Shown here in pieces: positions 13,118 through 24,858 of a DNA stretch of 29,804 nt. The DNA is taken from IMG/VR virus record IMGVR_UViG_2639762982_000016, positions 1 to 29,804 of that record. One strand, written 5' to 3'. This DNA is from a virus (lineage: Duplodnaviria > Heunggongvirae > Uroviricota > Caudoviricetes). The notes beneath the pieces were generated by a model, which was not told the DNA's origin, ran no database searches, and worked only from the letters and a program-made list of their open reading frames with translations. Made by a program: the position numbers and the translations under genes. Positions within the stretch are counted from its first letter, which is position 1; every line of letters starts with the position of its first letter.

Positions 13118-13410
13118 TCCTGTTCACTGGCCTCTTTGGCCATCTTCAAATACTGTTCAGGGCAATGCGCCATAACGCGCTGAAACAGTTCCAGCGCCAG
13201 ATTGCGTTGCCCCTCATTAAATGCCATTGCCATAGCGTCCATCGGTGAGATAGCGGAAAACACACGGCCTTTCTCCAGCACCGACCAGACAACGCGACGC
13301 CCCTGTTCACTGCTCATGACAAAGCGAATGTCATCAATTTCACGCTGCGCCATGTCACGTTGCTTACGGGCGTTTTCTTCTTTCAGTTGATCGTCTTCGT
13401 AATCTGTCAT
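13114..13410 (-). CDS. Hypothetical head-assembly protein (98 aa)
   Basis: ORF track; 4-nt overlaps with portal and scaffold genes. Confidence 0.5.
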   Translation of the reverse strand: MTDYEDDQLKEENARKQRDMAQREIDDIRFVMSSEQGRRVVWSVLEKGRVFSAISPMDAMAMAFNEGQRNLALELFQRVMAHCPEQYLKMAKEASEQE

Positions 13411-15375: not shown

Positions 15376-15412
15376 TTGACATTTAACGCACGAATTATTA
15401 CCTTTCAGGTAA
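15376..15412 (+). promoter_or_regulatory. Candidate sigma70 promoter (TTGACA, 17-nt spacer, TACCTT) overlapped by an operator-like palindrome TTACCtttcaGGTAA at 15398-15412
   Basis: Consensus -35 hexamer at 15376-15381; the -10 match is weak (3 of 6); the palindrome matches the motif found in the immunity region. Confidence 0.35.
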
Positions 15413-15734
15413 GTAAAGGGTTCATTCCGGTTACTAACCTGACTGGCTTGTCGTTAAATTGAACAGGTGGAGTGAGCTTTTATTTTGAGCAGTACGGCGT
15501 ATGGCACATGCGCCGATAGCGGTCTGGATACGTTTAAGGGGCACCCTCCCTTGCTCGGGCAAACGAACCAGGTAGCCGGAATGTGCAAGTCGAGCGGTTT
15601 TATTCCGCGCACGGGGATTCACCATCCCGGCGATTCGGTGTGACGCCTCGGAAGAGACGAGGGTACAACGATGAGAGCATTTATGGAGCCGCGACAAAGT
15701 GTGGCGCCTTAACAGGCTAAGTGCTCTCAGCGTT

Positions 15735-15811
15735 GTGGCATTAGCTCAGTCGGACAGAGCAACCGCCTTCTAAGCGGTTGGTCGCAGGTTCGAATCCTGC
15801 ATGCCACGCCA
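15735..15811 (+). tRNA. tRNA-Arg, anticodon UCU (reads AGA), with encoded CCA
   Basis: Hand-folded cloverleaf: 7-bp acceptor stem GTGGCAT/ATGCCAC, D-arm GCTC..GAGC, anticodon stem ACCGC/GCGGT with loop CTTCTAA, T-arm GCAGG-TTCGAAT-CCTGC, discriminator G, then CCA. Resembles but is not identical to the host argU sequence as I recall it. Confidence 0.85.
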
Positions 15812-15854
15812 GAATCACGCCTAAGGACCGTGATGCCAGAAGTTCCAGGTGCTT

Positions 15855-15896
15855 GGCGGTGATGGTTTCCCTTGAAGGACTATCACCGCCCTTTTT
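15855..15896 (+). terminator. Long-loop hairpin (GGCGGTGAT...ATCACCGCC) followed by CTTTTT; possible terminator after the tRNA
   Basis: 9-bp inverted repeat with an 18-nt loop and a T-tract. Confidence 0.35.
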
Positions 15897-15974
15897 ACAG
15901 CAGGACGCCATTGCGATGACTTCATGCTGTAAACCCGTACAGCCACGGAAGGCATAACTCATTGCTTCCAGTTC

Positions 15975-15998
15975 GCCCGGTTCGCCGGGCATTTTTTT
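15975..15998 (+). terminator. Strong intrinsic terminator (GCCCGG-TTCG-CCGGGC plus T7) 12 nt upstream of the next start codon
   Basis: 6-bp GC stem, UUCG tetraloop, seven T residues. Confidence 0.6.
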
Positions 15999-16009
15999 AA
16001 GGTGAGATT

Positions 16010-16381
16010 ATGAACGACCAGCAAATCGAAAAAGAAATCGTTGAGAAAGGCAAAACGGCACCGCGCGTTACGCCAGACCATATCGAAGGCATTATTGCTC
16101 AGGAGGCATATTTCACAGCAGAAGATGGTGCCTTTGGCAAAGCCATAAAAGCGAAACATACTGGCGGAGAGGTAAACTACCAGCCGCACGAATCACTTTC
16201 TCTGCTGACGTTCTGCGTCCTGGTATTGCGCAACGGCTTCACCGTCACCGGAGAGAGTGCCTGTGCAAGTCCGGAAAATTTTGATGCAGAAATTGGTCGG
16301 AAGATTGCCCGGCAGAATGCTGTAAACAAAATCTGGATGCTCGAAGGTTACTTGCTGAAGCAGAAGCTAAGCGAGCAATAA
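16010..16381 (+). CDS. Small phage protein (123 aa), probably Gp49-like (N4 Gp49 / Sf6 gene 66 family); possible accessory (moron) gene
   Basis: RBS AAGGTGAGA; the motif block LTFCVLVLRNGFTVTGESACASPENFDAEIGRKIARQNA matches my recollection of that family; it is oppositely oriented to the flanking late genes. Confidence 0.5.
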   Translation: MNDQQIEKEIVEKGKTAPRVTPDHIEGIIAQEAYFTAEDGAFGKAIKAKHTGGEVNYQPHESLSLLTFCVLVLRNGFTVTGESACASPENFDAEIGRKIARQNAVNKIWMLEGYLLKQKLSEQ

Positions 16382-16384
16382 CAC

Positions 16385-16398
16385 CGTGACATGTCACA
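16385..16398. repeat. 14-bp palindrome CGTGACATGTCACA, copy 1 (downstream of the terminase large and Gp49-like genes)
   Basis: Perfect 12-bp palindrome GTGACATGTCAC with flanking C and A; an identical 14-mer occurs at 18650-18663. Confidence 0.6.
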
Positions 16399-16403
16399 AA
16401 CAG

Positions 16404-16429
16404 CCAGCCGATGAGCTGGCTTTGTTTTA
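16404..16429 (+). terminator. Intrinsic terminator (CCAGC-CGATGA-GCTGG plus CTTTGTTTT) ending the plus-strand cassette
   Basis: Stem-loop plus T-rich tract directly after the 16381 stop. Confidence 0.55.
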
Positions 16430-16471
16430 TCCTCATCAGAGGATATCAACGACATTATCCCCACCAGCGGA

Positions 16472-17947
16472 TTAAGCATACGGGTCATAATCTGTGATGG
16501 CCTTGCCTTGCTGGTTCTGCTGCCCAGGAATTCGCAGACGCTTCGACACAGGGAAAGCAAACGTCAGCAGTAGCGCATCGCCTTTACCCGGCGAACGCCC
16601 AAGTCGCTCTTTGATATCTTCCTTCGGTTCGATAACGATTTTACCGTCCACGCGAACTTTGTACTCTGCCGCCGACAGATCGTCCGCTGTTTCCTGGTCA
16701 TCCAGCATCCCGCCCAACCTCAGCCATGTCTTGCATGAGTTGAACATCTCCCCGCGCTTGTTGAGCATCTGAGGGTCAGTTGACGCACCACCGAACGGAA
16801 CAAGTTGCCATGTACGTCCCCAGCCATCACCGATTGACTTCAAACCGGTTCCGTAACCGAAGTCGATGAATACCGCGTCAGCCTGATACTGGTCTTCAAA
16901 GTCAGCGATGCGCTTCGCCATAATCAGATCGTCGGTGGTCTTGTTGCCAGTCCATAGCACCTTACTATGCAACCCCTGCCGCAGGTATATCACCGCGTCA
17001 TCAACGCCTGAATATGCCGGGTCAACACCGATTATCACCGGTGCATGTGCAACCTGCGCAGCAGTTACCACCCGTTTCATTGCCTCGTCAGTAAGACCGG
17101 TAGGGATAAACTGCAATTCAGATGCATTAGGGAATATGCCGCGCACACGGATTTTAACGAAGTCGCTGTCTTCCCCGTAGTCATCAACCCATTTCTGCAA
17201 TTGCTGCTTGTTAGTACCTTCCACCGTCCGGCTGTCAATCTGCGCAGTTTTCCAGCGGTGTTTATATTTGCGGAAACATTCACGGAATCGCCCGGTATTA
17301 CGCGTCGGGTTTCCGAACGCCACCCAGATAATCTCAGTGTCTTCGTCCGTTAGCGCACCTTCGGCAACTTCCCACACCAGATCCGCAATGTTCGACGCTT
17401 CATCAAACACCACGATGATGCGTTTGCGCTCGTTGTGTAGTCCGGCGAATGCCTCGGTGTTGTGCTCAGACCAGGGTATTGCGTCAGCCCGCCACCGCTT
17501 GTCGTGCCCTAGGTCATTGCTGTACATCGCGGTAGCGGTACAGGTAAACCAGTCTTTCGTGATGGCAAGGTTCGACCACTTGATAATTTCCGGCCAGGTC
17601 TTCGTTCGTAGCTGGTTGTCGGTGTTGGCGGTCACCACGACCTTACAATCCTCGCAAGTGGACATGCCCCAGTTGATCAGCATTGAGATGAATGCTGATT
17701 TACCAATACCGTGACCCGAAGCGCGTGCCAGCATAAGCGGCTGATAGCGCGTCTCTGGATTCTGCAGGTGATCACGTATCTCTCGGAACGCATCGGCTTG
17801 CCACTGACGTGGGCCGGTGGCATGTGCCAGTTCAGTCCCCTCTTCCCCCCACGGGAACGCATAGAGGGCATAGCCAAGCGGATCGTGAGTGAACCCTGCA
17901 ATATCCTCGATCAACTGCTCTTCAGGAGATAACGCTGTATCTGTCAC
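16472..17947 (-). CDS. Terminase large subunit (491 aa)
   Basis: Walker A-like ARASGHGIGKSAF near the N-terminal ATPase region; acidic nuclease-type motifs later; 4-nt overlap with the upstream small subunit gene. Confidence 0.85.
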   Translation of the reverse strand: MTDTALSPEEQLIEDIAGFTHDPLGYALYAFPWGEEGTELAHATGPRQWQADAFREIRDHLQNPETRYQPLMLARASGHGIGKSAFISMLINWGMSTCEDCKVVVTANTDNQLRTKTWPEIIKWSNLAITKDWFTCTATAMYSNDLGHDKRWRADAIPWSEHNTEAFAGLHNERKRIIVVFDEASNIADLVWEVAEGALTDEDTEIIWVAFGNPTRNTGRFRECFRKYKHRWKTAQIDSRTVEGTNKQQLQKWVDDYGEDSDFVKIRVRGIFPNASELQFIPTGLTDEAMKRVVTAAQVAHAPVIIGVDPAYSGVDDAVIYLRQGLHSKVLWTGNKTTDDLIMAKRIADFEDQYQADAVFIDFGYGTGLKSIGDGWGRTWQLVPFGGASTDPQMLNKRGEMFNSCKTWLRLGGMLDDQETADDLSAAEYKVRVDGKIVIEPKEDIKERLGRSPGKGDALLLTFAFPVSKRLRIPGQQNQQGKAITDYDPYA

Positions 17948-18540
17948 TGATTACCATCCTGACGTTCTTTGAGTCGCTTCCTGGCTGCCGCTATGCGATC
18001 AGCAATTGTCACATTCACATTAACATCCAGGCGTTCTTTGAACGCGTTGACGTCGACGTGCTTACCAATCAGTTCGAGGTTCTTCACCTTGTCAGGCCAT
18101 TTAATTTTTTTGAGGATTGTCTCTATCGAATCCTCGTTCATGTTCATGATGGTCGATGACAGATCAAAGCCGCTAAGCGTAGTGCGCCAGATTTTCGGCC
18201 ACTCGCGGATTGGCTTAAGGCTCCCATCGTCGTTGAGGATGTCGATCACGTCCATCTGGTCGATCTCCACCAGGCGCATGAGAACGTAATCAGCACTGAC
18301 GCGCATTCGTTTGTTGCGCTCCTCCATCAACTCGGCAATCCGTTTTTGAATGCGTTCATCGCGCATCATGACACTGGCTTTAACTGCCGCTGTATTTGGG
18401 GAGAATCCTGCGTTAATCGCTGCCTGAGTCTGGTTTTCAGGCGTTTTGATGTATGACTGGCAATAAGCCTCCTGCATTGCTGTGAGCGGCTTAAATTGCG
18501 TTGATTTGCGTTTATAGGTTTTAGGTTCAGCAGGCATCAT
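17944..18540 (-). CDS. Terminase small subunit (about 198 aa)
   Basis: Motif KPLTAMQEAYCQSYIKTPENQTQAAINAGFSPNTAAVKAS resembles small terminase (Terminase_2-type) N-termini. The ORF track extends to 18618 with a TTG start; I prefer ATG at 18540, but the start is uncertain. Confidence 0.65.
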   Translation of the reverse strand: MMPAEPKTYKRKSTQFKPLTAMQEAYCQSYIKTPENQTQAAINAGFSPNTAAVKASVMMRDERIQKRIAELMEERNKRMRVSADYVLMRLVEIDQMDVIDILNDDGSLKPIREWPKIWRTTLSGFDLSSTIMNMNEDSIETILKKIKWPDKVKNLELIGKHVDVNAFKERLDVNVNVTIADRIAAARKRLKERQDGNQ

Positions 18541-18579
18541 AACCACCGTGGTAATAGTTACCGTTGTGGTAATAGTACC

Positions 18580-18607
18580 ATGCAAAATAAAGCCGCCATA
18601 GTTGGCG
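18580..18607 (-). terminator. Intrinsic terminator-like hairpin (GCCGCCA-ACTA-TGGCGGC plus TTTATTTTG) just upstream of the terminase small gene
   Basis: 7-bp GC-rich stem followed by a U-rich tract on the minus strand. Confidence 0.45.
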
Positions 18608-18649
18608 GCAGTATTCAAAACCCGTCAAATTCATCATGCATAATCTAAT

Positions 18650-18663
18650 CGTGACATGTCACA
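18650..18663. repeat. 14-bp palindrome CGTGACATGTCACA, copy 2 (upstream of the terminase small gene, at the 3' end of the 115-aa ORF)
   Basis: Identical to the 14-mer at 16385-16398. Confidence 0.6.
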
Positions 18664-19006
18664 CTATTAATTTCGTTTCATGCCAGCCTTTAGTCACCCA
18701 GCATTGCGAGTCACCATTACACGGGCATGAATTAACTGGAACTCTCTCGCCGCACTTACCGCAACGTTTTCTGCTGATCGATTTTATACGCCCGCGCACA
18801 CGTGCATCATCCTGGCGGATCAGCAGCGCGATGTACTCGGCCATTTCATAGGGATCGCGACCAGGGCGCCGGGCGGCGCAGTTCCGCGCCAGCATTTCCT
18901 GCTCCTGCTTATCCAGCACCAGTTCAATTTTGCGCTCACCGGCGGCGGACTGCCGAGCGCGCTGCGCGGCTTTGCGTTCTGCGGGGGATTTAGCCACGAA
19001 TCGCAC
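18659..19006 (-). CDS. Hypothetical basic, Cys-rich protein (115 aa)
   Basis: ORF track; C-terminal RKRCGKCGERVPVNSCPCNGDSQC could be a zinc-binding cluster; function unknown. Confidence 0.45.
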   Translation of the reverse strand: MRFVAKSPAERKAAQRARQSAAGERKIELVLDKQEQEMLARNCAARRPGRDPYEMAEYIALLIRQDDARVRGRIKSISRKRCGKCGERVPVNSCPCNGDSQCWVTKGWHETKLIV

Positions 19007-21698: not shown

Positions 21699-21701
21699 GA
21701 T

Positions 21702-21778
21702 TTACCTCTGAGGTAATTAAAAACCACATAAGACACGAAATCAATAGATCTAAGAATATTTTGTTACCTATTAGGTAA
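21702..21778. promoter_or_regulatory. Two perfect operator-like palindromes TTACC-N5-GGTAA (21702-21716 and 21764-21778) between the P-like gene and the downstream genes
   Basis: TTACCtctgaGGTAA and TTACCtattaGGTAA; the first overlaps the RBS of the interrupted gene; a candidate TTGATT/TTTAAT promoter lies between them on the minus strand. Confidence 0.45.
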
Positions 21779-21790
21779 CTATTAAGGCGT

Positions 21791-23569: not shown

Positions 23570-23687
23570 TCTGGTTACTATCTTCAATTTTTCCGCCCCT
23601 TTTTGTTATTGATATTGGCTATTTTGCACAATTGGAAAATTTGATCAACCGGATTTGGTTTTTTATTACCTTTGAGGTACGAATAGA

Positions 23688-23713
23688 TATGAAAAGACCG
23701 CCGGGTGGCGGTC
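23688..23713 (-). terminator. Terminator between the Cro-like gene and the early-right genes (tR1-like position)
   Basis: Minus strand reads GACCGCC-ACCC-GGCGGTC followed by TTTTCATA. Confidence 0.5.
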
Positions 23714-23735
23714 TACAGAGGGTTGTAGCTGGATA

Positions 23736-23966
23736 TCATGAGTAGAAGAAGTATGCCAGTTCTGCTTTTGAGCGCAGCCATTGTCTTGTTTTACAGGCTT
23801 TAAAAAGCCCATTCATCAATACCTTACCTGGCATTTTGCGCTTACCTGTTAAGTGAGTCTGGATATAGTGACTCGTCGTTCCGGCTTCCTGTGCGAAGGC
23901 TTCACGCTCATCCGGAGTAAGTGCAAGCCAGTGCTTTTTGAAATCGAAATGTCCGTTATCGCTCAT
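23736..23966 (-). CDS. Cro-like transcriptional regulator (76 aa)
   Basis: Small gene divergent from the repressor across an operator cluster, followed by a terminator; likely HTH near ALTPDEREAFAQEAGTTSHYIQ. Confidence 0.5.
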   Translation of the reverse strand: MSDNGHFDFKKHWLALTPDEREAFAQEAGTTSHYIQTHLTGKRKMPGKVLMNGLFKACKTRQWLRSKAELAYFFYS

Positions 23967-24002
23967 AGCTATTGCCTGATATTTATTTCAGATAATAAAT
24001 AT

Positions 24003-24065
24003 TCACCCATAAGGTAACAAAAATCAAGGATAGTTACCTATGGGGTGCATTTACCTGTTGGGTAA
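24003..24065. promoter_or_regulatory. OR-like operator cluster with three TTACC-N5-GGTAA-type sites (24003-24017 imperfect, 24034-24048 imperfect, 24051-24065 perfect) between the Cro-like and repressor genes
   Basis: TCACCcataaGGTAA, TTACCtatggGGTGC, TTACCtgttgGGTAA; a candidate minus-strand promoter overlaps them. Confidence 0.55.
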
Positions 24066-24120
24066 TATTGCTTTAAATTGAATCATCTACTGATTCATAT
24101 ATGAGGCGATTTTCCAGAAA

Positions 24121-24705
24121 ATGAAAAGTATCCAGGACGTCCGCAGGCAAAATCTCAACGACTTGATCGACCGTGAATTCAATGGTGTTCAGACGCGGAT
24201 GGCAGAAAAACTTGGAACTCAGGCAAATCTGGTAAACCGCTGGGCTCTTGGCAAGAAGGTTATCGGCGACCAGGTTGCGCGAAAAATTGAAGCTGCCGCC
24301 AATAAACCCCGTAACTGGCTTGATATCGATCGCTCGCTTTCTCAGGAAGGTTTTCAGCCTGTCGGCCCAAGCGACATTGGTCAGCTGGCGGCTCACAACC
24401 TGGAACGCTGGATGAGCGAAAGCCGCGACCTTTCAACACAGGGAAAACTTCACCGCGCATCCGGCGTCGCCCAGGTGACAATCAGCCGCCTGTTAAACAA
24501 TGAGGTCAGCGTTTCCATTTCCACCCTGGAGAATGTTGCATCCGCATTCGGGCGTCACGGCTATGAATTACTGATTCACCCGCACGACCCTGCGACCATC
24601 AACTATGACCGCTCGCGCTACGCATTGTTACCCGAAACCGAGAAAGCAAAGATCGAAAGTTACATTGAATTTGTCATCAACCAGAACGAAAAAAACAAAC
24701 AATAA
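24121..24705 (+). CDS. Immunity repressor candidate with two HTH domains and no recognisable S24 peptidase domain (194 aa)
   Basis: Divergent from the Cro-like gene; HTH-like segments at about residues 25-45 and 110-135; no Ser/Lys autocleavage motifs seen; followed by a terminator. Confidence 0.6.
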   Translation: MKSIQDVRRQNLNDLIDREFNGVQTRMAEKLGTQANLVNRWALGKKVIGDQVARKIEAAANKPRNWLDIDRSLSQEGFQPVGPSDIGQLAAHNLERWMSESRDLSTQGKLHRASGVAQVTISRLLNNEVSVSISTLENVASAFGRHGYELLIHPHDPATINYDRSRYALLPETEKAKIESYIEFVINQNEKNKQ

Positions 24706-24726
24706 AATCATATTTTTCAGTAAGTA

Positions 24727-24750
24727 AGCCGCCTTCTGGCGGCTTTTTTA
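24727..24750 (+). terminator. Intrinsic terminator after the repressor gene (AGCCGCC-TTCT-GGCGGCT plus T6)
   Basis: Perfect 7-bp stem and a T-tract. Confidence 0.65.
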
Positions 24751-24762
24751 TTGCCTGCACAA

Positions 24763-24839
24763 TTACCTTAAGGGTAATTTTTTTAACTCATATCTATTGA
24801 CACCAAACCAAATACGCATAATCATTACCTCAACGGTAA
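24763..24839 (+). promoter_or_regulatory. OL/PL-like region: two perfect TTACC-N5-GGTAA sites (24763-24777, 24825-24839) flanking a TTGACA -35 hexamer (24797-24802)
   Basis: TTACCttaagGGTAA and TTACCtcaacGGTAA; the -10 candidate AATCAT at 17-nt spacing abuts the second site. Confidence 0.5.
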
Positions 24840-24858
24840 CAGACCGAGGTAACAAGTT

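What the first reader, a model, noticed from the sequence alone, without database searches (positions are those of the whole stretch)
16385..18663. Identical 14-bp palindrome CGTGACATGTCACA on both sides of the terminase genes
One copy lies about 110 nt upstream of the terminase small gene; the other lies just past the terminase large stop, next to the terminator of the oppositely oriented cassette. Two identical 14-mers 2.26 kb apart are very unlikely by chance. It could be a binding site for a late-gene regulator, a packaging or terminase recognition element, or a recombination site marking a module boundary. It does not match the CRP, LexA or FNR consensus as I recall them.
Basis: seen in the sequence. 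Interest (0 to 1): 0.6.

Follow-up and report, generated by a model that had tools for sequence, protein, structure and literature searches.

The report
Operator dyad of an uncharacterised phage regulator
The repeated 14-mer is real and is most likely the DNA docking site of a small, unstudied phage regulator encoded right next to it, placed where phage transcription units end, so it points to an undescribed way these phages control late-gene transcription.

Summary
CGTGACATGTCACA occurs exactly twice in the window (16385-98, 18650-63), and no shuffle reaches that.

The window is an epsilon15/phiV10-like (Uetakevirus) prophage with late genes on the minus strand. Flanking the terminase is incidental. 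Complete relatives (epsilon15, SPN1S, Tyrion, phiV10) keep the dyad at three homologous places: the stop codon of the regulator gene upstream of terS, the 3' end of the Gp49-family gene, and the end of the structural operon. Each time it sits 1-40 nt before an intrinsic terminator.

The same motif, Y-GTGAC-N2-GTCAC-R, follows homologues of that 112-aa regulator (PHROG 536, no Pfam family) into unrelated phages: N15, P2-like, Mu-like, P22-like and lambda-like Vibrio phages. It usually overlaps the regulator's own TGA stop. I counted 39 exact sites in 402 kb against 0.36 expected. A Pseudomonas relative that carries a Q-like gene instead has none.

The regulator is modelled as a ribbon-helix-helix domain plus a four-cysteine finger.

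Best reading: this is the regulator's operator, placed to control transcription at unit boundaries. Whether it drives a Q-like late switch or acts as a roadblock is unresolved. It fails the definitions of matS, CRP, FNR and the Rep operator. No binding experiment exists.

The parts
18650..18663 (.). Dyad copy 'a' (late direction: TGTGACATGTCACG). It contains the TGA stop (18661-18659, minus strand) of the regulator gene, and its first hexamer GTGACA is the -35-like element of a promoter-like match.
   Evidence: The same place is conserved in epsilon15, SPN1S and Tyrion; phiV10 has a 1-nt variant.
16385..16398 (.). Dyad copy 'b'. It lies 3 nt after the stop of the Gp49-family gene and 3 nt before that gene's terminator hairpin, 74 nt past the terL stop.
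   Evidence: Conserved in phiV10, epsilon15, SPN1S and Tyrion. In Tyrion it stays with the Gp49-family gene, not with terL.
18659..18997 (-). Gene of the candidate binding protein: 112 aa, GTG start. It is the homologue of phiV10 gp55, epsilon15 gp49 and N15 gp46, and is modelled as a ribbon-helix-helix domain followed by a long helix and a four-cysteine finger.
18633..18662 (-). Promoter-like match GTGACA-18 nt-CATGAT whose -35 lies inside dyad 'a'. The predicted start is near 18626, 16 nt before the terminator hairpin.
   Evidence: not significant on its own: 3 matches found against 3.8 expected in that region; epsilon15, SPN1S and Tyrion have GTGACA-17-TAAATT at the same site; L012 has GTGACG-17-TAGATT; no such match at copies b or c.
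18583..18609 (-). Intrinsic terminator between the regulator gene and terS (GCCGCCAACTATGGCGGC followed by TTTATTTT), 40 nt after dyad 'a'.
   Evidence: Annotated as a terminator in epsilon15.
18539..18573 (.). Two tandem prophage-repressor (Rep) operator-like dyads of the ATTACC-N5-GGTAAT type, reaching the terS start codon. This is a different motif from the finding.
   Evidence: 10 in the window against 0.78 expected; the epsilon15 record annotates the homologous site as a repressor binding site.
17944..18540 (-). Terminase small subunit gene (ATG at 18540 or 18537).
16472..17947 (-). Terminase large subunit gene.
16402..16431 (+). Intrinsic terminator of the Gp49-family gene (AGCCAGCCGATGAGCTGGCT followed by TTGTTTTAT). 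Together with dyad 'b' it forms a conserved composite.
16010..16381 (+). Gp49/Sf6-gene-66 family gene, oriented against the late genes. Dyad 'b' marks its 3' end.
   Evidence: PF13876, E = 8.6e-35.

Best explanation
The 14-mer is one instance of a 14-bp dyad, Y-GTGAC-N2-GTCAC-R. I propose it is the operator of the small phage protein encoded immediately upstream (window 18659-18997, minus strand). That protein probably binds as a dimer, with a ribbon-helix-helix DNA-binding domain and a four-cysteine finger.

In epsilon15-like phages three such operators sit at the ends of transcription units, each just ahead of an intrinsic terminator:
- the end of the early-right operon, which is the regulator's own stop codon, upstream of terS;
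- the end of the Gp49-family cassette that converges on terL;
- the end of the structural operon.

The bound protein is therefore placed to decide whether RNA polymerase stops or continues at these boundaries. At copy 'a' the dyad overlaps the -35 hexamer and the first bases of the spacer of a promoter-like sequence. Its transcript would run straight into a terminator before terS. This is the layout of lambda PR'/tR' with Q, or of PalpB/tB with AlpA. I take copy 'a' to be the early-to-late switch, and copies 'b' and 'c' to be further control points at terminators.

Status of each step:
- Shown: the motif, its positional conservation, its roughly 100-fold enrichment, and its linkage to the regulator gene across unrelated phages.
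- Inferred: that this protein binds it. I put this at about 0.8.
- Inferred more weakly: that the outcome is control of termination or late transcription (about 0.45), and whether the effect is read-through or a block (open).
For: 1. Positional conservation despite diverged flanks. Epsilon15 has exactly three copies with up to 1 mismatch in 39.7 kb, and 0 of 100 shuffles reach that. SPN1S, Tyrion and phiV10 carry them at the homologous three places. Alignments show the dyad plus the adjacent hairpin as conserved islands where the flanks are unalignable.

2. Linkage to the regulator across unrelated phages. GTGAC-NN-GTCAC overlaps or abuts the regulator gene in Yersinia P2-like L006, N15, L009, Mu-like L013, L014/L137, L138, P22-like L142, L143, L144 and L147. 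It lies within 250 nt in the Vibrio-type L007 and L012.

3. Enrichment and motif width. There are 39 exact sites in 402 kb against 0.36 expected. Flanks are 39/39 pyrimidine on the 5' side and 39/39 purine on the 3' side.

4. A divergent member, L015, has a different dyad at the same place: two copies of ACAAAT-N5-ATTTGT, the first over its stop codon.

5. Negative control. Pseudomonas phage Flu_PA14_3 has a TerL 65% identical, carries a Q-like antiterminator gene at the equivalent position, lacks the regulator, and has no exact dyad.

7. Position of the gene. It is the last gene before the lysis or terminase genes in epsilon15-like phages and in L007, L012, L014, L143 and L144. In the last three a strong promoter, a leader and terminators precede the holin gene.

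8. A promoter-like arrangement with its -35 in the dyad, followed by a terminator, is found at copy 'a' in all epsilon15-like phages and in L012, but at no 'b' or 'c' copy.
Against: - No binding or expression data exist. The pairing of protein and site rests on co-occurrence alone.
- The promoter-like match at copy 'a' is weak: 4 of 6 in the -10, and no more frequent than in shuffles.
- In L143, L144 and L137 the dyad lies 51-66 nt upstream of the -35 of the late promoter, at unphased distances. That is not the Q/AlpA geometry.
- Copies 'b' and 'c' have no promoter, so a promoter-loaded mechanism does not explain them.
- N15, the Mu-like phage and the P2-like phages have their own late regulators (Q, Mor, Ogr-like) besides this protein.
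- RHH proteins are mostly repressors.
- Late operons of these phages carry Rep operators and may not need an activator.
Confidence: 0.45

Rival explanations
1. Same protein and same site, but it acts as an ordinary RHH repressor or roadblock. Bound at unit ends, it stops polymerases: it reinforces the adjacent terminators, insulates the late operons from the oppositely oriented Gp49/tRNA and antirepressor cassettes, and represses the promoter-like sequence at copy 'a'.
For: - In copies 'b' and 'c' the hairpin has a good T run in one direction only. In the other direction it is followed directly by the dyad, where a roadblock could substitute for the T run.
- In Vibrio-type phages the dyad lies directly in front of the ribosome-binding site of terS.
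- In L141 two dyads lie 33 bp apart upstream of a gene.
Against: - The gene occupies the position of the late activator or antiterminator in many phages, and a Pseudomonas relative has a Q-like gene there.
- For transcripts coming from the dyad side, a roadblock ahead of an already good terminator seems redundant.
- There are no data on direction of effect.
Confidence: 0.22
2. The dyad is a site for a host protein, for example MatP (it resembles matS) or a CRP/FNR-family factor, and the linkage to the phage regulator gene is indirect.
For: - matS is GTGAC[AG]N[TC]GTCAC, with the same half-sites.
- TGTGA/TCACA are CRP half-sites (established knowledge).
- All phages carrying the motif infect enterobacteria or vibrios, which have MatP (established knowledge).
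Against: - The spacer is 2 bp in all 39 sites, never the 3 bp of matS or the 6 bp of CRP.
- Prophages avoid matS.
- The motif tracks one phage gene across hosts, including a variant dyad with a variant protein.
- It is absent from a related phage lacking that gene.
- hhalign of the regulator family against MatP gives 0.3% probability.
Confidence: 0.05
3. The dyad is a packaging (pac) recognition element, or a recombination or module-boundary sequence flanking the terminase module.
For: - Two copies bracket terS-terL in the window.
- TerL resembles P1 PacB (annotation).
- The copies lie at junctions where gene content varies between relatives.
Against: - A third conserved copy lies at the end of the structural operon, 17 kb away.
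- Copy 'b' follows the Gp49-family gene, not terL, in Tyrion.
- The motif travels with the regulator into phages with lambda-type, P2-type, Mu-type and P22-type packaging genes.
- Only the 14 bp, plus a non-identical hairpin, are shared, so it is not a repeated mobile unit.
Confidence: 0.05
4. It works at the RNA level, as a small hairpin that is part of the terminators, or as a processing or stability signal, with no dedicated protein.
For: In epsilon15-like phages it always lies just 5' of a terminator hairpin in the direction of the terminated transcript.
Against: - The 14-mer alone folds to only a 4-bp stem of -2.7 kcal/mol, and 20 of 200 shuffles do as well. In context the self-hairpin is not consistently predicted.
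- The flanking Y/R positions are often non-complementary (C...A).
- In other lineages the dyad is not next to terminators.
- There is no Rfam match.
Confidence: 0.04

Closest known systems
Lambda Q with its binding element at PR' and terminator tR'; likewise AlpA with its ABE at PalpB and terminator tB in Pseudomonas aeruginosa (PMC7969949)
   Same: - The regulator gene is the last gene before the late (lysis/packaging) genes.
- A DNA site lies just after that gene.
- At copy 'a' and in L012 the site overlaps the -35 and spacer of a promoter-like sequence.
- An intrinsic terminator lies between that promoter and the late genes.
- A Pseudomonas relative with the same structural module has a Q-like gene at this position.
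   Different: - There is no sequence or fold relation to Q-lambda, Q21, Q82 or AlpA: no Pfam hit, and the fold is RHH rather than HTH or winged helix.
- In several lineages the site is 51-66 nt upstream of the -35.
- Two of the three epsilon15-type sites have no promoter and lie at 3' ends.
- Antitermination is untested.
MatP/matS of the E. coli Ter macrodomain
   Same: - The half-sites GTGAC/GTCAC in a short palindrome are identical.
   Different: - matS is 13 bp with a 3-bp spacer (RNY). This dyad always has a 2-bp spacer.
- It sits in phage DNA, which avoids matS.
- There is no detectable sequence homology of the protein to MatP.
- The protein lacks MatP's four-helix bundle and coiled coil.
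Ribbon-helix-helix repressors and their operators (P22 Arc and Mnt, CopG, antitoxins such as TacA and ParD)
   Same: A small protein with a predicted strand-helix-helix core and a short dyad-symmetric target. Tandem dyads two helical turns apart are seen in L015.
   Different: - It has an extra conserved basic N-terminal helix and a C-terminal four-cysteine finger.
- The operator is placed at the 3' end of its own gene and next to terminators, rather than over its own promoter.
- It belongs to no Pfam family.
Rep operators of epsilon15/SPC32H-type phages (ATTACC-N5-GGTAAT)
   Same: They are repeated dyads in the same genomes and also lie at heads of late operons. Two sit 77-111 nt from copy 'a'.
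   Different: The sequence and spacing differ, as do the positions: Rep operators are in front of genes and around the repressor gene, not at unit ends. The dyad studied here is not annotated in the epsilon15 record.
DksA/TraR-type C4 zinc finger proteins that bind the RNA polymerase secondary channel
   Same: A profile of the family gives TraR and YbiI as its best PDB sequence matches, over a long helix followed by CxxCG..[IL]P...G...C.
   Different: The E-values are marginal (0.04-0.05). No member hits the Pfam DksA/TraR finger model. The spacing of the last two cysteines differs. No acidic tip motif was examined. This is a lead only.

Membership tests
matS (MatP binding site) | A 13-bp motif GTGAC[AG]N[TC]GTCAC (3-bp spacer) | tested here: not met
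   The consensus is taken from PMC3603311 and PMC3116907. All 39 sites, including both window copies, have a 2-bp spacer.
matS (MatP binding site) | Bound by MatP or a MatP homologue | tested here: inconclusive
CRP / FNR sites | TGTGA-N6-TCACA (CRP) or TTGAT-N4-ATCAA (FNR); both consensus sequences are from established knowledge | tested here: not met
   The sequence read directly is TGTGA-N4-TCAC(G/A). The spacing is wrong for CRP and the half-site is wrong for FNR.
Ribbon-helix-helix regulator with dyad operator | A strand-helix-helix fold that dimerises through the strand | tested here: inconclusive
Ribbon-helix-helix regulator with dyad operator | A short symmetric or tandem DNA target that co-occurs with the gene | tested here: met
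Ribbon-helix-helix regulator with dyad operator | Demonstrated sequence-specific binding | not testable with these tools
   This needs EMSA, footprinting or ChIP.
Q-type (DNA-loaded) late antitermination module | The regulator gene lies directly upstream of the late genes, with a promoter and then terminator(s) in between | tested here: met
   Window. L014, L007, L143, L144 and L137.
Q-type (DNA-loaded) late antitermination module | The binding element lies between the -35 and -10 of the target promoter | tested here: inconclusive
   The dyad overlaps the -35 and start of the spacer at copy 'a' of all epsilon15-like phages and in L012. It lies 51-66 nt upstream of the -35 in L143, L144 and L137. 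Copies 'b' and 'c' have no promoter.
Q-type (DNA-loaded) late antitermination module | Homology to a known Q family or to AlpA | tested here: not met
   No Pfam family matches at all, and there is no PDB sequence match to Q proteins.
Q-type (DNA-loaded) late antitermination module | Terminator read-through that depends on the protein | not testable with these tools
   This needs reporter fusions or in vitro transcription.
DksA/TraR C4 zinc finger | A match to the family's finger signature | tested here: inconclusive
   Profile against PDB: TraR E = 0.04 and YbiI E = 0.05. No member hits Pfam zf-dskA_traR.
pac/cos packaging site | A site in or next to terS at which packaging cleavage starts | not testable with these tools
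   No virion-end data are available. The phiV10 record opens inside the dyad only because the depositors started it after the stop codon of the last gene. Arguments against: a third copy 17 kb away, and occurrence with unrelated terminases.
Rep operator of epsilon15-like phages | ATTACC-N5-GGTAAT | tested here: not met
   It is a different motif. Rep-type dyads lie elsewhere, including at 18539-18573.

The most novel reading that the evidence does not exclude
The 112-aa protein and its dyad define a new class of DNA-tethered factor that acts on RNA polymerase at terminators. In this reading a ribbon-helix-helix domain docks on Y-GTGAC-N2-GTCAC-R, typically at the stop codon of its own gene and just ahead of intrinsic terminators. 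A DksA/TraR-like zinc finger then engages the polymerase and sets read-through or arrest. It would be a further, structurally unrelated analogue of lambda Q, 21 Q, 82 Q and AlpA, and the first to use sites at 3' ends of operons as well as at a promoter.
Probability: 0.2. Interest if true: 0.8.

Novelty: new variant of a known kind. Interest (0 to 1): 0.6.

Why it matters
Epsilon15/phiV10-type prophages are common in E. coli: 289 of 5426 complete genomes carry most of this region. They also occur in Salmonella, Klebsiella and Enterobacter. Yet nothing is known about how their late genes are switched on. No Q, Ogr, Mor or sigma-type late regulator is annotated in the phiV10, epsilon15, SPN1S or Tyrion records.

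This work links a conserved cis element to a specific uncharacterised protein family. That family has no Pfam model and only 149 clusters at 50% identity among 1.8 billion proteins, and it is spread over podo-, sipho- and myovirus genomes. The link gives a directly testable protein-site pair.

If the protein controls termination, it adds a new solution to the classic early-to-late switch, and a compact part (a 14-bp site plus a 112-aa protein) for synthetic control of terminators. Even the modest outcome, a new RHH repressor with its operator, would improve annotation of hundreds of prophages.

Tried and rejected
- **cos/pac clue from the phiV10 record.** The record starts inside the dyad, but only because the depositors opened it after the stop codon of the last gene.
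- **matS.** The consensus was checked in the literature; the spacer is wrong. hhalign against MatP is negative.
- **Rep operator.** It is a different motif.
- **RNA element.** The hairpin is weak, there is no Rfam hit, and the flanking positions do not pair.
- **Each dyad as a -35 of a promoter.** This holds only at copy 'a' and in L012, never at 'b' or 'c'.
- **Fixed distance from the dyad to the late promoter in other lineages.** The distances are 51, 55 and 66 nt, which are not phased.
- **A K/Q swap in the N-terminal helix to explain the variant dyad of L015.** Dropped, because P0213 has the same helix residues yet a GTGAC dyad.
- **Pfam, PDB sequence and Foldseek searches of the protein.** No family or significant match was found.
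- **Literature.** A full-text search for the motif found 0 papers. The epsilon15 genome paper (PMC2698709) is not held. The SPC32H and ZX5 papers say nothing on this element.
- **The search for related loci with the family alignment.** It failed because no conserved stretch was available. Single-protein scans gave few loci.
- **The exact 14-mer in IMG/VR.** It also occurs as a coding coincidence in recurrent genes, for example a Q-like N-terminus MRDMSQ, so the bare 14-mer is not diagnostic without context.
Full report
**1. The observation**

CGTGACATGTCACA occurs exactly at window 16385-16398 and 18650-18663. With up to two mismatches there are five matches against 0.20 expected, and none of 100 dinucleotide-preserving shuffles reaches five. 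The core GTGACATGTCAC is a perfect 12-bp palindrome. GTGACNNGTCAC with up to one mismatch occurs nowhere else in the window.

**2. Context**

The window is an epsilon15/phiV10-like (genus Uetakevirus) prophage of E. coli. Most of this region is present in 289 of 5426 complete E. coli genomes. It matches phiV10, epsilon15, SPN1S and Klebsiella and Enterobacter phages. In a near-identical prophage in another E. coli chromosome it lies next to guaA.

The late genes run on the minus strand. In that direction the order is:
- a 112-aa gene annotated 'transcriptional regulator' in phiV10 (gp55) and epsilon15 (gp49), at 18997-18659;
- an intrinsic terminator, 18609-18583;
- two repressor-operator-like dyads, 18573-18539;
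- terS, from ATG 18540/18537 to 17944;
- terL, 17947-16472;
- an oppositely oriented cassette: its terminator at 16402-16431, the Gp49-family gene at 16010-16381 and tRNA-Arg at 15735-15811, all on the + strand;
- a small gene and then the portal gene.

Copy 18650-63 contains the TGA stop of the 112-aa gene. Copy 16385-98 lies 3 nt after the stop of the Gp49-family gene and 3 nt before its terminator hairpin.

**3. 'Both sides of the terminase' is incidental**

Complete relatives have three copies, not two.
- Epsilon15 has exactly three with up to one mismatch in 39.7 kb, which none of 100 shuffles reaches. They lie at the stop of gp49, between terL and the stop of the Gp49-family gene, and at the stop of gp18, the last gene of the structural operon, 1 nt before its terminator.
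- SPN1S and Tyrion have the same three places.
- phiV10 has them too, with one base changed in the first copy.

The third place falls outside this window. In Tyrion an extra DUF551 gene separates terL from the second copy, which stays beside the Gp49-family gene.

Alignments show the dyad together with the adjacent GC-rich hairpin as islands of identity. The flanking sequence, in Tyrion even the flanking genes, is unrelated. In the direction of the transcript that each terminator ends, the order is always stop codon, dyad, 1-40 nt, hairpin, T run. SPN1S has a fourth near-copy at the stop of its spanin gene.

**4. The motif travels with one gene**

tblastn with the 112-aa protein finds homologues of 35-45% identity in unrelated phages. 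In these, GTGAC-NN-GTCAC recurs beside the gene.

| Phage or locus | Where the dyad lies |
|---|---|
| Yersinia P2-like phage (L006) | TTGTGACGCGTCACAA overlaps the homologue's TGA stop; only such site in 30 kb |
| N15 (L008) | GTGACTGGTCAC overlaps the gp46 stop |
| Vibrio phage K233 (L007) and L012 | 140-230 nt after the gene, and again directly before the ribosome-binding site of terS |
| Lambda-like metagenomic phage (L009) | 4 nt before the gene's start |
| Mu-like prophage (L013) | Inside the last 40 nt of the gene |
| L014/L137, L142, L143, L144, L147 | Overlaps the stop codon |
| L138 | 24 nt after the stop |

Over 18 regulator-bearing loci (402 kb) there are 39 exact sites against 0.36 expected from 5-mer frequencies. 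All 39 have a pyrimidine before and a purine after the 12-mer, so the motif is 14 bp: Y-GTGAC-N2-GTCAC-R. The central dinucleotide is free.

One divergent member (L015/L016) lacks this dyad. It has two tandem copies of another dyad, ACAAAT-N5-ATTTGT, 21 bp apart, the first again over its stop codon.

A natural control is Pseudomonas phage Flu_PA14_3. It has the epsilon15-type structural module (TerL 65% identical). At the equivalent position it carries a Q-like antiterminator gene rather than this regulator, and it has no exact dyad.

- 50 have the regulator, TerL or the Gp49-family gene beside the match.
- About 20 more are the epsilon15-type third site.
- The rest are coding coincidences in recurrent genes, or arrays of GTGAC repeats in unrelated contigs.

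The 14-mer is therefore not a host repeat, but the bare 14-mer is not diagnostic without context.

**5. The protein**

The family is small: 149 clusters at 50% identity in 1.8 billion proteins. It has no Pfam family, and only PHROG 536 labels it 'transcriptional regulator'.

The alignment shows the following conserved elements in order:
- a basic N-terminal helix (ERKxAQRxR);
- a glycine and a strand-like segment;
- two helices (R.PG.EPY...EY...LIR.D);
- a long helix;
- CxxCG..LP.GC.G..GD..CW.

A profile of the family gives marginal PDB sequence matches to TraR and YbiI over the long helix plus finger (E = 0.04-0.05). That suggests, weakly, a DksA/TraR-like finger. No Pfam model confirms it.

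**6. What the anatomy suggests**

At copy 'a' the first hexamer of the dyad, GTGACA, is the -35 of a promoter-like match.
- Window and phiV10: GTGACA-18-CATGAT.
- Epsilon15, SPN1S and Tyrion: GTGACA-17-TAAATT.
- L012: GTGACG-17-TAGATT.

In each case a terminator-type hairpin follows within about 0-16 nt of the predicted start. No 'b' or 'c' copy has such a match. On its own the match is weak and no more frequent than in shuffles.

In L014/L137, L143 and L144, after the dyad at the regulator's stop come, in order:
- 51-66 nt of spacer;
- a strong sigma-70 promoter (for example TTGACA-17-TATAAG);
- a leader with one or two terminators (leader length not measured);
- the holin gene.

L007 shows the same promoter-leader-terminator-holin order, but its dyad is about 100 nt upstream of the promoter.

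This is the lambda PR'-tR' design with this gene in the place of Q. For lambda Q and for AlpA the binding element lies between -35 and -10 (PMC7969949). That geometry is approximated only at epsilon15-type copy 'a' and in L012.

What is constant across lineages is the position of the dyad at the 3' end of the regulator gene, not its distance to a promoter.

**7. Mechanism**

The best-supported statement is that the dyad is the operator of this protein. I put this at about 0.8, on co-occurrence, enrichment, the variant-protein/variant-dyad case, the negative control and the fold.

I further propose that the bound protein acts on RNA polymerase at transcription-unit boundaries. Copy 'a' would be the early-to-late switch in front of terS, and copies 'b' and 'c' would be control points paired with terminators. 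I put this at about 0.45.

The direction of the effect is open.
- A Q-like read-through factor fits the gene's position and copy 'a'.
- A roadblock or repressor fits the RHH fold, the 3'-end sites and the Vibrio sites in front of ribosome-binding sites.

Points against a simple late activator:
- N15, the Mu-like phage and the P2-like phages already have Q, Mor or Ogr-like regulators.
- The late operons here carry Rep operators.

**8. Rivals**

- **Host MatP.** matS is GTGAC[AG]N[TC]GTCAC, 13 bp. This dyad always lacks one central base. Prophages avoid matS. The protein shows no detectable homology to MatP.
- **CRP and FNR.** These fail on spacing or half-site.
- **Packaging or recombination site.** Contradicted by the third distant copy, by Tyrion, and by the spread to phages with unrelated terminases.
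- **RNA element.** Contradicted by the weak hairpin (-2.7 kcal/mol), the non-pairing flanks, the non-terminator contexts and the absence of any Rfam match.

**9. Novelty**

The motif string is in none of the searchable papers. The richly annotated epsilon15 record lists Rep, IHF, RNase III and integrase sites but not this one. The kind of thing, a dyad operator of a small phage DNA-binding protein, is known. Three features are not described as far as I could find:
- the protein family, an RHH domain plus a four-cysteine finger with no Pfam model;
- the rule that the operator overlaps the regulator's own stop codon;
- the conserved pairing with terminators at operon ends.

I rate it a new variant of a known kind, with interest 0.6. 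There is roughly a one-in-five chance that it is a new class of DNA-tethered terminator-control factor.

Noticed in passing
window 18539-18555 and 18557-18573; also 15397-15413, 21701-21779, 23665-24840: Dyads of the prophage repressor (Rep) operator type, ATTACC-N5-GGTAAT, occur 10 times with up to 2 mismatches against 0.78 expected. Two in tandem run up to the terS start codon, and one lies upstream of the small gene and portal operon. This suggests the repressor acts directly on late operons.
   Followed up: partly
window 17944-18618 (minus strand): The PGAP-style terS start (TTG 18618, 224 aa) would place the terminator and both Rep operators inside the ORF. The ATG at 18540/18537, as used in the epsilon15 and Tyrion records, is more plausible.
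   Followed up: partly
window 15735-16431: tRNA-Arg (anticodon TCT) and a Gp49/Sf6-gene-66 family gene form a cassette oriented against the late genes, between terL and portal. Late transcription either ends before it or must cross it in antisense.
   Followed up: no
window 13346-13359 (phiV10 L002 5305-5318): A degenerate copy of the dyad lies inside the gene after portal, with 2 mismatches here and 1 in phiV10. It is not conserved in epsilon15, so it is probably a coding coincidence.
   Followed up: partly
L143 about 6120-6140; L137 about 6470-6490: A conserved CTAGCGTGGTGA lies directly after the predicted late promoter in two lineages. TAGCGT resembles a -10 element and could be a sigma-dependent pause signal of the kind Q-type factors use.
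   Followed up: no
L015 2497-2534 (same in L016 1157-1194): A divergent family member has two tandem dyads ACAAAT-N5-ATTTGT, 21 bp apart, at its stop codon in place of the GTGAC dyad.
   Followed up: partly
L035, L083, L121, L054, L069 (IMG/VR contigs): Arrays of closely spaced GTGAC/GTCAC repeats, iteron-like, surround an exact 14-mer in contigs where no regulator homologue was found in the stored stretch. They may be targets of another protein or multi-site operators.
   Followed up: no
L008 3238-3249 (N15 record 33237): A second exact GTGACTGGTCAC lies inside the N15 replication gene repA, identical to the copy at the gp46 stop.
   Followed up: no
L004 26722-26733 (SPN1S): A fourth near-copy, GTGACATGTCAT, overlaps the stop codon of the Rz-like spanin gene at the end of the lysis cassette.
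   Followed up: no
window 18659-18997, protein residues 5-19: The conserved basic N-terminal helix (ERKAAQRAR) resembles a bZIP basic region (NxxAAxxSR in GCN4). bZIP half-sites are TGAC, the core of this dyad's half-site. The bZIP comparison is from memory; it is a possible convergent recognition mode and was not tested.
   Followed up: no
L146 41500-41919 (Pseudomonas phage Flu_PA14_3): A relative with the epsilon15-type structural module carries a Q-like antiterminator gene at the position the PHROG 536 regulator occupies in the enterobacterial phages.
   Followed up: partly
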